Assembly (NCBI RefSeq): GCF_004010195.1
Contig: NC_057731.1
Location: 17,822,720-17,886,719, forward strand
DNA: 64,000 bases
Direction of reading: 5' to 3'
Origin: Chiloscyllium plagiosum
Taxonomy: Eukaryota
Below the pieces are notes generated by a model. It had not been told where the DNA came from. It ran no database searches and was given only the letters and a program-made list of their open reading frames with translations. A program made the position numbers and the translations under genes. This document shows positions 11,410 through 43,196 of this stretch, in pieces; positions within the stretch are counted from its first letter, which is position 1; each line of letters opens with the position of its first letter.

Positions 11410-14400
11410 GCATGAAACATTAACCTCTGGTTTACTCCCAGTGCCAACCTTGAAAGAGGGAAAGAATAAAAGGATAAAGGAGATTATACAATCTCTTCAG
11501 CCATTGAATTATGTTCAAGGATTGAGGTTCTTAGATCATTGAGGTCTCTTCTGGGGCAGAAAAGACCTGTTCATAAATGATCAGTTTCACCTGTCCTGGA
11601 GAGAGACTAATATCCAGCAGGAAGATTTTCTCATTCTGTTACGGGAAACTCTCAACTATTAAGAAAGGGTTGGACGGGATTAGAAGTAGTGTCAGAGTAA
11701 AAGAAAAGTAGACGAGGTGGTTTTGAGCCTGAAAAGAACAATTTAATTAGATAATTCAGATAAGAGCATTTCAGATAACAAAGTAACTCTGCATTAAACT
11801 GCATTTATTTCAATGTAAGGGGTCTTACAGGTAAGGCTGAAGAACTCAGGACATGTTTGGGATTGGTATATCATAGCTATTACAAATATCTGGCTGAGGG
11901 ACAGACAAGAGTAGCAGCTCAATGTTCAGTGTTTCAGAAGCTTTAGGAAGGATAAAAAGAGAAAGAGGAGGAGGGGGTGGCATTTTTGATTAAGGAAAAT
12001 ATTACTGCTGTTACTAGAGAAGATGTTTCTAAAAAAATCATTTTGTGAAAACATATGGGTTGAAGTTAGAAATGATAAAGGAATGATCACTTTGATGGGA
12101 TTGTACTATACACCCCTTAATAGCCAGAGGGAAATTGAAGAACAAATATGTAGAGATCCCAGAAACATGTATGAATAATAACATTGTAACAGTAGATGAT
12201 TTCAATTTACCTCTCATTGACTGGGACTACCATAGTGTCAAATGTCTGGATGGTGAAGAATTTATTAAATGTGTTCAATAAAATTTTCTTTGTCAATATG
12301 TAAGTGTTCCTAATACAGAAGGAGCAAAATTTGTCCTCTTGGGCAATAAGGCAGGGCAAGTGACTGAAATGATAGATGGGGATCATTTTGGGCCTAGTGA
12401 TCATAATTCTATTTGTTTTAAAATAGTTATGGCAAAGGATGAGCCTTCCATAAAAGTTAAAGTTTTTAATTGGAGTAAGATAAATTTTAATAGTTTGTGA
12501 CAAGAAATTTCAAAGTTCATTGGAGTAGACTGTTCAAACAATAGAGGGGATTTCTTATGAGTAGGAGGCTTGATAACAAGAGCTCAGAGTCATTATGTTC
12601 CTTTTAGAGTGAAGGGTAAGGCTGGTAGGATTAGAGAACAATGGATGAATAAAGATATTGAGGTTCTAGTCAAGAACAAAAAAGAATCATATTATATATA
12701 AACAACTGGGTTCAAATGAATCTCTTGAACATAAACAGTTTTAGGGCATTTTTAAGATGGAGATCAGGAAAGTTTAAAGAGATGATATGAGATAGCCTTG
12801 GCAAATAAGGTGAAGGATAATATTCTATAAACACTGAGAATAAGAGAGTAACCACAGAGAGAGAGAGAGAGAGTAGGGCCTTTTAAAGACCAATGAGGTC
12901 TTCATGGTGTTAAACTTCAGGAGATGGGACAGATATGATAGGAATATTTTACATCAGTTTTTACTGTTGAGAAAGAAATGGAGGCTAGAGAACTCCGGAA
13001 AATAAATATTGATATTTTGAAAGCAGTTCACATTACAGAAGAGGAAGTATTGAAGGTCTTAAAAAACATAAATGTTCAGGACCTGATCGAGTGTATTCCA
13101 GGACACTGTGGGACCCCTTGCAGAAATATCTGTATCATCCAGAAACACAGGTGAGGGGCTGGATGACTGGAAAGCGACTAACGTTGAGCCTTTGTTTAAG
13201 AAGGGATGTAAGGACAAATGTGGGAACTACAAACCTGTGAGTCTGACTTTGGTGTTGGGCAAGTTGTTTGAGGTGACTCAGAGACTCAACAGTATTTATA
13301 TGCATTTGGAGAGGCAAGGAATAATTAGGGATAGTCAGAATGGTTTTTGTGAGGAAAATCATGTCTTACAAACTTGATTGAGTTTTTTGAGGAACTAACC
13401 AAGAAGATCGATGAGGGCAGAACGGTAGATGTTGTTTACTTGGACTTTAATAAAGACTTTGACAAGATTCCACATGGTAGACTAATTAGTGATATTAGAT
13501 CACATGGGATTCAGGGTGACCTTGTGAATTGGATACATGATGATAGGAGACAGTGTGATGGTGGAGGGTTGTTTTTCAGATTGGAGGCCTGTGACAAGCA
13601 GTGCTGGATCCACTTTTGTTTATCACTTACATAAATGATCTGGATGAGAACAGAGAAGGCATGTTTATTACATTTGTGGATGACACTAGAATTGGTGGCA
13701 TAATGGACAGGTTATATAAAATTATAAAGCGATCATCTGGATCAATGGACTAAACAGTGGTAGATGGAATTTAATTTGGATAAATAGGAGGTATTTCATT
13801 TTGGTAAAACAGAACAAGGGCAGGACATATAAAATTAAAAAGAGGGTCTTGGGTACTGTTGTAGAACAGAGAAATACAGGGTTCAAGTACATAATTCTTT
13901 GAAGTTTGCATCACACGTAGACAGGGTGGTTAAGAAGTTGTTTAGCACACTTGCCTTCATTGCTAGGCTCTGAGTGTAGGAGTTGGGTCCTAATGTTGAA
14001 GCTGTACAGGATGGTGGTGGGACTTCTTCTGGCTGTTCTGGGCTCCCTGATATACCAAGGATATTAGTAAGCTGGAAAGGGTTCAGAAGAGATTTACCAA
14101 GATGTTCCCAGGATTAGACGGTTTGAGTTACAAGAAGAGGCTAGACCTTTTTTTCACTGGAGCACAGGAGGTTGAGGGGTGACCTCATGGGGGTTTTTAA
14201 AATCACGAGGGGTATAGATTAGGTGAATGGCAGGTGTCTTTTCCCTAGAGTGGGGGATTTCAAGACTGTAGGCATTTTTTTTAAAGGTGAGAACAGTAAG
14301 ATTTTAAAAAATATGGAGGGCATTTTGTCTTACACGGAAAGCAGTTTCTGAGTGGAATGAATCTCCAGAGAAAGTTGTGGATGCGGATACAGTTACAATA

Positions 14401-14542
14401 TTTAAAAGGACATTTGGATAAGTTCAAGAATAAGAAATATTTGGAGGTATATGGGCCAAGTGCAGGCAGGTGGAACCAGTTTAGTTTGGAATCATGGTTG
14501 GCATAGACTGGGGGCCTGTTTCTATGCTGTATGACCCTATAA
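11410..14542 (+). mobile_element. Long decayed CR1: ORF1 esterase C-terminus, ORF2 (APE and RT) and 3' tail
   Basis: SGLLPVP..GKNKRI and LRFLDH*GLFWGRKDLF (CR1 ORF1 esterase). APE start at about 11800. RT segments NYKPVSLT and VDVVYLDFNKDFDKIPH. Tail ctgtatgaccctat. Confidence 0.9.
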
Positions 14543-14633
14543 AGAAGCAGGTAAGTTTAAAACCCCACCAAGGATAAATAAAGATGACATTTCAACTTTA
14601 CTTGGGAAAGTATACTTTTATCATTAAACTTAC

Positions 14634-14696
14634 CAAAAACATTGTCCCGGATATTTTTTGCCTTTCCACCACACTGGCAGGTTCACTTAAATTATT
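14634..14696 (-). CDS. BLNK: Coding exon 2 (63 nt) of the same SLP-76-family gene (SAM domain continued)
   Basis: Acceptor ccttatttatacacag|AAT gives NNLSEPASVVERQKISGTMFL, then donor TTG|gtaagt; phase 0-0. Matches the SAM pattern '..+.....I.G..FL' (LCP2: LNYKDCEKAVKKYHIDGARFL). Confidence 0.8.
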
Positions 14697-15133
14697 CTGT
14701 GTATAAATAAGGAACAAGGAAATGTTTAGCTTCAAATGTTAGCTTGTCCAAAGATTAGAAAACAAATCATAATTGATTTAAGGCCAGAGATATACTTGAG
14801 ACAAAAACTTGCATAATTGACAATATGCTTTAGGTTAATAAGTGGAATAACAGCGCTGTCAACTGAAGTCATATCTCATCCTCCAATGACACTCCTTGGC
14901 CACAGTAAATTTTTTTCCTGAACAATTAAGTAACCTTTCAGTACTTCCTGGATTGCCTTAAATACTTAAACATTTATTGACGTTTTCTCTGTTTACTCTC
15001 ATTTATCTTGTCACCCTTTTGTGATCAATCGCGGTGCATTAACATTTTCCAAAGAGAAATAAAGGCGATGTTTCAACGGTTATTTATGTATGTATGAAAT
15101 TTGTCTTTAAACGGGAAAAAAGTTCCGTCTTAC

Positions 15134-15208
15134 CAGTCGCAGGAATTCTGCTAGTTCCCGAGGTCTCCAACTTTCAAACTCTTCTCGAGTTGGTAACTTT
15201 GTGGCCAT
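15134..15208 (-). CDS. BLNK: Coding exon 1 (75 nt) of an SLP-76-family adaptor, probably BLNK; start of a SAM domain
   Basis: Reverse strand acaATGG (good Kozak) gives MATKLPTREEFESWRPRELAEFLRL, then phase-0 donor CTG|gtaag. It resembles the SLP-76/LCP2 N-terminus (P.R.E...W....LA.+). It sits in a CpG-richer, repeat-free patch. BLNK is the divergent neighbour of DNTT in other vertebrates. Confidence 0.8.
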
Positions 15209-15480
15209 TGTACACCTCAAAGAACACAGTCTCAACCTTTGATCTAATCGTTGTGTTTTACTTCTGAGAACTTATTCCTGCTCCACTCTTTCCCAGCTCA
15301 AGGCGGAAGTTTTCAAGATTTGAAGTTGTCAGTGTGCAATGGGACTCCTCCACGCCTATTTTACCACGACGCAATCATGTGTTAATCTGACCGAAATGAA
15401 GGGCAGTGAAAGAAAAGATTGGAAATCATACCTGCAATTGGAGAGAAAAACCATTGGCTGCTAGAGTGCGGGGTGTTCAT
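15209..15480 (-). promoter_or_regulatory. Putative BLNK 5'UTR and proximal promoter
   Basis: Directly upstream of the ATG and locally CpG-enriched. ETS core CGGAAGT at 15304-15310, TTCCTG at 15275-15280, CCAAT (ATTGG) at 15453-15457. Confidence 0.5.
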
Positions 15481-15834
15481 CATTGCGCTTGTTATACATT
15501 ACAGTTAGAAATATTGACATATTTTCTAACATCATGCTTTTTCGCTGATTTCATTTTCATCGTGCAAACGAAATGCGCAAATAGTTTTCGAACTGCTTTA
15601 ATTAAATGCAGTTATTTGTATTTTTTTTAGTTGTCCGTCTAAGTTGGCATTTATATGCCATTTACTGTATATGTAATAAACCTTAGCCTTAACCTACACA
15701 GTGCCTGTGGTATATGCTCCCTCTAAATGCTCTTAATAGATTTCGGGAGGTGAACGTGCACTAAACTTGCGTAAGACGAAATTGAGTAAGGTCACACCGC
15801 TTAGATTTACTGCACTTCTCTAACAGTTTCCCAC

Positions 15835-42984: not shown

Positions 42985-43196
42985 ATGAGCTCAACAGGAA
43001 ACCTGGGAGGAATCGGAATCATACCAAAGAGGAAAAGGCAAAAAGTGACAGAAGTCTGCAGTTCACAAAGTAAGCACGAAGTCAGATTTCAAGATCTGAC
43101 CATATTCGTTGTAGAAAGAAAAATGGGATCGAGCAGAAGAATGTTTCTGATGGATTTAGCACGCAAGAAAGGATTCAGAGTCGACGATGTCATGAG
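42985..43196 (+). CDS. DNTT: DNTT (terminal deoxynucleotidyl transferase) coding exon 1: NLS and first part of the BRCT domain
   Basis: ATG at 42985 gives MSSTGNLGGIGIIPKRKRQK...FQDLTIFVVERKMGSSRRMFLMDLARKKGFRVDDVM. This has a PKRKRQK NLS and the TdT/Pol-mu motif ExKMGxxRRxFLMxLARxKGFRV. Phase-2 donor AG|gtacac at 43196/43197. Confidence 0.96.

What the first reader, a model, noticed from the sequence alone, without database searches (positions are those of the whole stretch)
14634..15208. Hidden SAM-domain exons: this BLNK appears to begin with an SLP-76-like N-terminus
Seen: two small exons (75 and 63 nt, both phase 0, canonical splice sites, 437-nt intron), too short for the ORF track. They encode MATKLPTREEFESWRPRELAEFLRL/NNLSEPASVVERQKISGTMFL. 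Known: SLP-76 (LCP2) starts with a SAM domain of this pattern, whereas mammalian BLNK starts with a short leucine-zipper/coiled-coil and no SAM; BLNK neighbours DNTT. Inference: the ancestral gnathostome BLNK kept a SAM module, implying a different oligomerisation route in shark B-cell receptor signalling. Some fish blnk models may already show this, so novelty is uncertain. I could not find the next exon in the window.
Basis: partly seen in the sequence, partly recalled or inferred. Interest (0 to 1): 0.75.

Follow-up and report, generated by a model that had tools for sequence, protein, structure and literature searches.

The report
Long SAM-bearing form of shark BLNK
These two spliced exons begin a long form of the shark B-cell signalling adaptor BLNK that carries a predicted SAM clustering domain; database gene models show the same form in bony fish, amphibians, reptiles and birds, while mammals likely lost it and kept only its last helix as the membrane-binding tip studied today.

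Summary
The two exons (75 and 63 nt) are real and spliced. They join a third exon 45 kb away and then the BLNK body. Together with the first shared exon they encode an SLP-76-type SAM domain: profile E=3e-18 and structural Z=12.2 to the SLP-76 SAM, with exon sizes 75/63/47/66 against 78/63/47/66 in shark LCP2. The exons are not hidden: RefSeq's shark BLNK models already start with them. They are not shark-specific either: 70 of 118 BLNK-type database rows, from sharks to birds, carry the full SAM. The addition: the locus also has a short first exon giving the mammal-type N-terminus, and both starts splice onto one exon that encodes SAM helix 5. So the mammalian 'leucine zipper'/vesicle-binding tip is largely SAM helix 5, and non-mammals, chicken included, have models of both forms. 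Mammalian loss rests on 4 of 4 rows only. Self-association by this SAM is inferred from SLP-76 and untested. Ten literature searches found no paper stating this.

The parts
15134..15208 (-). BLNK long form, coding exon S1 (75 nt, start codon; SAM helices 1-2)
   Evidence: covered and spliced in contigs of X1, X2, X6; identical to the start of RefSeq P0136
14697..15133 (-). 437-nt GT-AG intron, phase 0
   Evidence: joint 14696-15134 in X1 and X2
14634..14696 (-). coding exon S2 (63 nt; SAM helix 3 and the conserved G..FL motif); spliced onward to exon S3 (47 nt) at G000:C22:17792463-17792417, outside the window
   Evidence: the loose end at 14634 in X1 equals the first 29 nt of S3 (compared by eye)
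15209..15640 (-). transcribed leader contiguous with S1 (likely 5' UTR; true start not shown), with an alternative splice donor near 15432
   Evidence: contigs of X1 and X6 run to 15637 and 15643; joint 14696-15432 in X2; in-frame stop upstream of the ATG
42985..43194 (+). context: first coding exon of DNTT (TdT), head-to-head with BLNK, 27.8 kb from the S1 start codon
   Evidence: best match TdT BRCT chain 2COE, E=6.8e-12

Best explanation
These are the first two coding exons of a long BLNK (SLP-65) isoform whose first 75 or so residues are predicted to fold as an SLP-76-type SAM domain that likely clusters the adaptor by self-association. Shown: S1, S2 and S3 splice onto a shared exon, and a separate short first exon 21 kb upstream of that shared exon splices onto it too. 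Predicted: in the long form the shared exon is SAM helix 5, completing the domain. Inferred: in the short form the same amphipathic helix has no helices 1-4 to pack on, follows a basic leader, and serves as the vesicle-binding tip described for mammalian SLP-65. Inferred: choice of first exon switches BLNK between a SAM-clustered form and a membrane/vesicle-anchored form. Both forms date from the last common ancestor of jawed vertebrates, and mammals likely lost the three SAM exons. My odds by step: identity and splicing 0.97; SAM fold 0.93; shared exon = helix 5 = mammalian tip 0.9; loss in all mammals 0.75; self-association 0.6.
For: Splicing: S1-S2 joint in 3 of 4 runs; S2-S3 loose end in X1. 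A 3,068-nt contig of X2 holds S2 at bases 1-64 and the shared exon at 112-179, the spacing of the 47-nt S3 (taken as one record by equal length and depth). The short first exon joins the shared exon in X6 (loose end 28 of 30 nt alike). Fold: profile of 28 N-termini against SLP-76 SAM 2EAP, E=3.1e-18, ungapped over 73 positions, next hit 1.1e-3. Pfam SAM_2 gives 24 bits against a cut-off of 20.5 for residues 1-85. Model pLDDT 79.7 with a long helix at 61-74; top structural match 2EAP, Z 12.2, rmsd 2.4, 82 aligned. Exon sizes and phases match shark LCP2. BLNK SAMs form one group apart from LCP2 SAMs, 95/96, with lamprey rows outside both. The shared block is 13 of 22 identical between shark and each of two mammals. 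SLP-76 SAM forms dimers and tetramers, and helix 5 alone supports self-association (PMC3795252, passages). The first 45 residues of SLP65 bind vesicles (PMC7016142, introduction and passages).
Against: No protein-level evidence that the long form is made. Whole-protein Pfam scans stayed under the SAM cut-off in 6 of 6 shark proteins (best 19.2 bits), and Foldseek gave no match at E<=0.001 (best 2EAP, 1.3e-3). Identity to LCP2 SAM is only 20 of 73. In 8 of 8 cartilaginous-fish rows two positions that are mostly hydrophobic in bony vertebrates and LCP2 (48 and 53) are polar, and the model has no helix 4 of four or more residues, so the shark domain may be a weaker SAM. The AU test did not reject placing this genome's 52-residue SH2 exon with LCP2 (p=0.237). 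Mammalian absence rests on 4 of 4 full-length rows, with no monotreme seen.
Confidence: 0.72

Rival explanations
1. The SAM folds but does not self-associate; it docks another SAM protein (as ACK1 docks on SLP-76), or simply buries helix 5 so that the long form is a cytosolic, less active or damping isoform.
For: SLP-76 SAM binds ACK1 (PMC5391757, abstract and passages). SLP-76 cut down to helix 5 gave higher activation than the full protein (PMC3795252, passages), so helices 1-4 can restrain signalling. The long N-terminus is less basic than the short one (net 0 over residues 1-62 against +3 for the short first exon).
Against: The only characterised member of this SAM subfamily self-associates (PMC3795252). 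No partner evidence was gathered here.
Confidence: 0.2
2. The long transcript is a minor or non-B-cell by-product of an upstream promoter and the SAM exons are decaying, as the helix-4 changes in sharks might suggest.
For: Polar substitutions at two core-type positions in 8 of 8 cartilaginous-fish rows. Models that skip S2 or stop after S3 exist (P0008, P0051, P0091, P0107, P0193). None of 7 Xenopus laevis models in one cluster has the SAM.
Against: The frame is open and conserved across sharks, rays, chimaera, bony fish, amphibians, reptiles and birds (63% mean column identity over 28 rows, 8 invariant columns). It is spliced in three organisms.
Confidence: 0.06
3. The exons belong to a separate SLP-76-family gene (LCP2, CLNK or SH2D6) or are a stray LCP2 copy next to BLNK.
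For: The middle SH2 exons are missing from the C22 locus, and the AU test on the short SH2 exon was not decisive.
Against: LCP2 with its own four SAM exons is on C14, and two further paralogue SH2 exons lie on C101974 and C42. One contig links S2 to the BLNK shared exon. The missing SH2 exons lie on C15 beside 888 bp that are 100% identical to sequence near the 3,088-base gap of the C22 locus. That exon is 41-42 of 52 identical to mammal and chicken BLNK against 25-27 of 52 to LCP2. DNTT is the head-to-head neighbour.
Confidence: 0.02

Closest known systems
SLP-76 (LCP2) N-terminal SAM domain, PDB 2EAP
   Same: Same position, length and predicted fold; same four-exon layout and intron phases; top hit by profile and structure.
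   Different: Sits on BLNK, not LCP2; 20 of 73 identical; separate branch in the SAM tree; optional here through alternative first exons; helix-4 region altered in cartilaginous fish.
Mammalian and chicken SLP-65/BLNK N-terminal 'leucine zipper' / basic lipid-binding region (PMC4850452, PMC3181483, PMC7016142, passages)
   Same: Same gene; the shared exon and a short basic first exon are present at this locus and spliced.
   Different: The papers read describe no SAM on vertebrate BLNK. Here the shared exon is helix 5 of a complete SAM in the long form.
Invertebrate and lamprey SLP-76/BLNK-like adaptors
   Same: N-terminal SAM plus C-terminal SH2: amphioxus (PMC5431462, passages), sea star (PMC11593052, passages), lamprey P0196.
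   Different: These are outgroup or unresolved family members, not shown to be BLNK orthologues; no short-first-exon form was looked for in them.
Engineered SLP-76 dN57 (helices 1-4 deleted, helix 5 kept; PMC3795252)
   Same: The short BLNK form is a natural counterpart: it keeps helix 5 without helices 1-4.
   Different: BLNK adds a 14-16-residue basic leader, and its tip is reported to bind vesicles; that paper never mentions BLNK or SLP-65 (0 occurrences).

Membership tests
SAM domain, SLP-76 type | Sequence profile match to SAM families above the curated cut-off | tested here: met
   Residues 1-85 of P0136: SAM_2 24 bits against 20.5; 24 of 28 rows match SAM_2 at E<=0.1. Whole-protein scans of 6 shark rows stayed below the cut-off.
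SAM domain, SLP-76 type | Helical bundle with a long C-terminal helix 5, closest to 2EAP | tested here: met
   Predicted model only: helices 8-12, 16-25, 29-37, 42-47, 61-74; Z 12.2 to 2EAP, next 9.0; Foldseek TM 0.74, E=1.3e-3.
SAM domain, SLP-76 type | Intact helix 4 (L-x-x-x-D-L type motif, recalled) | tested here: inconclusive
   Positions 48 and 53 are polar in 8 of 8 cartilaginous-fish rows and mostly hydrophobic in the 20 others; only a 3-residue turn in the model.
SAM domain, SLP-76 type | Exon layout shared with LCP2 | tested here: met
   75/63/47/66 nt against 78/63/47/66 nt, phases 0/0/2 at the three inner introns (LCP2 exon 4 ends read from the printed flanks).
SAM domain, SLP-76 type | Self-association into dimers or oligomers | not testable with these tools
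   Needs a bench test; known for SLP-76 only (PMC3795252).
BLNK (SLP-65) orthologue | C-terminal SH2 of the BLNK clade | tested here: met
   SH2 exon 41-42 of 52 identical to mammal and chicken BLNK, 25-27 of 52 to LCP2; BLNK and LCP2 split 100/100, bootstrap not settled; P0003 matches BLNK SH2 2EO6 at E=3.9e-53. The AU test with the 52-residue exon did not reject the alternative (p=0.237).
BLNK (SLP-65) orthologue | Exons spliced to the BLNK body | tested here: met
   (S1-S2-S3-shared exon). The link onward to SH2 rests on RefSeq models of relatives and on the contig's length, not on a direct lay.
BLNK (SLP-65) orthologue | Head-to-head with DNTT (human arrangement recalled, not checked) | tested here: met
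   DNTT first exon on + at 42985, BLNK on - from 15208.
LCP2 (SLP-76) orthologue | SAM and SH2 group with named LCP2 proteins | tested here: not met
   The C14 locus, not this one, groups with named shark LCP2 P0204; this SAM lies in the BLNK group.

The most novel reading that the evidence does not exclude
In all non-mammalian jawed vertebrates BLNK is switched by promoter choice between two clustering modes built from one helix: a SAM-oligomerising form that primes B-cell receptor signalling without vesicle anchoring, and a short form in which orphaned SAM helix 5 binds curved vesicles. The mammalian reliance on the SLP65-CIN85-vesicle condensate would then be a derived state left by loss of three exons, and chicken DT40 cells would hold an overlooked second BLNK.
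Probability: 0.3. Interest if true: 0.75.

Novelty: new variant of a known kind. Interest (0 to 1): 0.5.

Why it matters
BLNK is taught as the SLP-76 relative that has a leucine zipper in place of a SAM. If the zipper is SAM helix 5 reused through a second first exon, the membrane-binding tip gains an origin, and the two adaptors' clustering mechanisms become one story. It is directly testable: chicken RefSeq has both forms, and BLNK-null DT40 cells are the standard rescue assay. The exons themselves are already in automatic annotation, which limits the surprise.

Tried and rejected
Complex prediction of the SAM homodimer was not available, so no verdict. Run X14 (single-cell raw reads, about 2% read) gave no reads on the exons: no evidence either way. 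No listed holder is on record as RNA. Contig depths cannot rank the long and short forms and were not used. Search for a mammalian SAM form with turtle residues 1-61 gave 24 hits among 36 candidates, all reptiles and birds; it also missed the amphibian and fish long forms known, so the blank is weak. The profile search of 1.84 billion representatives (184 hits at E<=0.001) has no names, and a mammalian long form could be hidden inside a 50% cluster. No convincing SAM exon was found in 170 kb at the C42 paralogue or 45 kb at the C101974 paralogue (best 6.6 bits, while true LCP2 exons scored 5.9-15.7), so this is inconclusive. The genome-wide SH2 family search listed nothing on C22, and the polymerase-palm search did not hit the DNTT locus. 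The first SH2 tree held one mis-cut row (P0026) and was rebuilt without it. I first misread DNTT as minus-strand and tandem; one search corrected this. The earlier-findings index returned nothing.

Full report
Observation. The stretch has one match in the genome, at G000:C22. A profile built from 20 bony-vertebrate rows only picks the shared exon, S1 and S2 as the top three of 24,152 frames in 464 kb around the window (29.1, 25.9 and 15.2 bits; next 7.9), so this is not chance.

Gene anatomy. Positions below are window coordinates continued into neighbouring stretches (genome position = 17822719 + value). tblastn of shark BLNK proteins maps a colinear minus-strand series from S1 to a last SH2 exon at -192,976. 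S3 (47 nt) lies at -30,256, the shared exon (66 nt) at -110,776, a short first exon (41 coding nt) at -89,612, and a candidate third first exon at -41,325. The exons S1-S2-S3-shared give the first 83 residues of RefSeq model P0136 exactly, and short-shared gives the first 35 of P0127. The exons are therefore already in automatic annotation as BLNK isoform X1. The middle SH2 exons are absent from C22, where a 3,088-base gap stands; matching exons lie near the end of C15 beside 888 bp identical to sequence near that gap. Misassembly is likely; a duplicated fragment is not excluded. DNTT begins on the plus strand at 42985, head-to-head.

Splicing. Of 4 runs laid on 14300-15700, three contig sets from three organisms show the S1-S2 joint; the fourth (raw single-cell reads, 2% read) had no reads on the exons. 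The tool marks the three as RNA by guess only. A loose end in X1 equals the first 29 nt of S3. In X2 a 3,068-nt contig carries S2 at 1-64 and the shared exon at 112-179 (same length and depth in both answers). In X6 the shared exon is joined to the short first exon (28 of 30 nt alike). Both starts are thus spliced in close relatives; the long start also in the organism with the best match.

SAM domain. A profile of 28 long N-termini hits the SLP-76 SAM structure 2EAP at E=3.1e-18 without gaps over 73 positions; the next hit is 1.1e-3 and the list continues with other SAM proteins. Residues 1-85 pass the Pfam SAM_2 cut-off, though whole shark proteins do not (0 of 6), which likely explains why most database rows list only SH2 (4 BLNK rows among the 120 listed carry a SAM family). 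The model (pLDDT 79.7, pTM 0.65) has four short helices and a long one at 61-74. Its best structural match is 2EAP (Z 12.2, rmsd 2.4, 82 aligned; Foldseek TM 0.74 but E only 1.3e-3). Shark LCP2 on C14 builds its SAM from exons of 78/63/47/66 nt against 75/63/47/66 here. In a SAM tree of 36 rows, 18 BLNK SAMs are one side of a 95/96 branch against 12 LCP2-like rows, with two lamprey rows outside both; the outgroup was not one side of a branch, so the root is unsure. Against: positions 48 and 53 are polar in 8 of 8 cartilaginous-fish rows and helix 4 is not formed in the model.

Identity as BLNK. The SH2 exon is 41-42 of 52 identical to mammal and chicken BLNK and 25-27 of 52 to LCP2; the tree splits BLNK from LCP2 at 100/100 with an unsettled bootstrap (P0026 left out after a mis-cut). 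An AU test did not reject moving this 52-residue exon to the LCP2 side (p=0.237), so the tree alone is not proof; identity, the contig link and synteny carry the assignment.

Distribution. Of 118 BLNK-type rows (P0003-P0120; the two LCP2 rows left out), 70 have the full SAM, 26 the short start and 22 are partial or other. These are cluster representatives, one isoform each, not a census of species. Full SAM rows come from sharks, rays, chimaera, bichir, gar, bowfin, teleosts, caecilian, axolotl, frog, turtles, lizards, alligator and birds. Short rows come from sharks, rays, bichir, teleosts, turtles, lizards and mammals. Chicken RefSeq has both, and the curated chicken protein Q9YGC1 is the short one. 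All 4 mammalian rows (three rodents, one marsupial) are short; no monotreme was seen, and the targeted search was insensitive.

How it likely works. The shared exon is residues 63-84 of the long form, which holds predicted helix 5. It is residues 17-38 of the mammalian and chicken short form (13, 13 and 11 of 22 identical to shark). It is amphipathic (hydrophobic moment 0.64-0.73 in 10 short forms) and the short leader adds net +1 to +3 charge. SLP65 lacking its first 45 residues does not attach to vesicles, form granules or signal (PMC7016142: introduction read whole, other passages by term search). The SLP-76 SAM forms dimers and tetramers, and helix 5 alone supports weaker self-association, smaller clusters and higher activation (PMC3795252: passages). 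I infer that the long form buries this helix in a SAM and clusters through it, while the short form frees it for membranes. That step is untested; the complex predictor was not available. blnk marks bamboo shark B cells and one T-cell subset (PMC11372145: passages), without regard to isoform in the passages seen.

Literature. Ten searches found no paper that states a SAM on vertebrate BLNK or links the zipper to SAM helix 5. The one paper holding BLNK, SAM domain and SLP-76 together notes a SAM on a sea-star BLNK-like protein (PMC11593052: passages). Amphioxus slp76 has a SAM (PMC5431462: passages). PMC4850452 and PMC3181483 (passages) describe BLNK with a leucine zipper or basic region. PMC5391757 (passages) covers ACK1 binding. 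Kohler 2005 was seen only as a reference title. The library lacks most subscription papers and theses, and I read no supplements, so prior mention is possible. The human BLNK-DNTT arrangement is recalled, not checked.

Verdict. A real, already-modelled but apparently undiscussed long isoform: a new variant of a known kind, interest 0.5.

Noticed in passing
G000:C15:81128000-81133000 (L057) against the gap at G000:C22 about 17633600-17636700: The two middle SH2 exons of BLNK lie near the end of C15 beside sequence 100% identical to the C22 locus; RefSeq models with this locus's sequence (P0136, P0127) end before the SH2. Likely a misassembly that truncates the annotated protein.
   Followed up: partly
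window 15432 (-): An alternative donor in the leader splices straight to S2 in run X2, skipping the S1 start codon; such a transcript could start at the methionine near the end of S2.
   Followed up: no
G000:C22 about 17781394 (window continuation -41,325): Candidate third first exon (four codons plus two bases, then GT) matching RefSeq models in carpet sharks and a catshark; it would leave helix 5 with almost no leader.
   Followed up: partly
G000:C22 about 17708420-17708361 (L013): An optional exon of about 57 nt right after the shared exon is used in run X1 and X6 and is present in shark, fish, amphibian, reptile and chicken models, but not in the 4 mammalian rows seen.
   Followed up: partly
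proteins P0008, P0051, P0091, P0107, P0234, P0158: Models that skip all or part of S2, breaking the SAM in frame, recur in shark, crocodile, teleosts and chicken.
   Followed up: no
proteins P0095, P0386-P0391: None of 7 Xenopus laevis BLNK models in this cluster has the SAM while four other frogs do: a possible second loss, or an annotation gap.
   Followed up: no
alignment A1, positions 48-53: All 8 cartilaginous-fish rows have a distinct, more polar helix-4 region than bony vertebrates and LCP2.
   Followed up: partly
G000:C14:64.64-64.80 Mb, C101974:29.4-29.9 kb, C42:10.46 Mb: Three further SLP-76-family loci: LCP2 (with four SAM exons), and two others that are likely CLNK and SH2D6 (names inferred, no named reference in hand).
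   Followed up: partly
proteins P0276, P0277, P0308: SAM plus SH2-like adaptors of this layout also turn up in a crayfish and a soft coral, suggesting the architecture predates deuterostomes.
   Followed up: no
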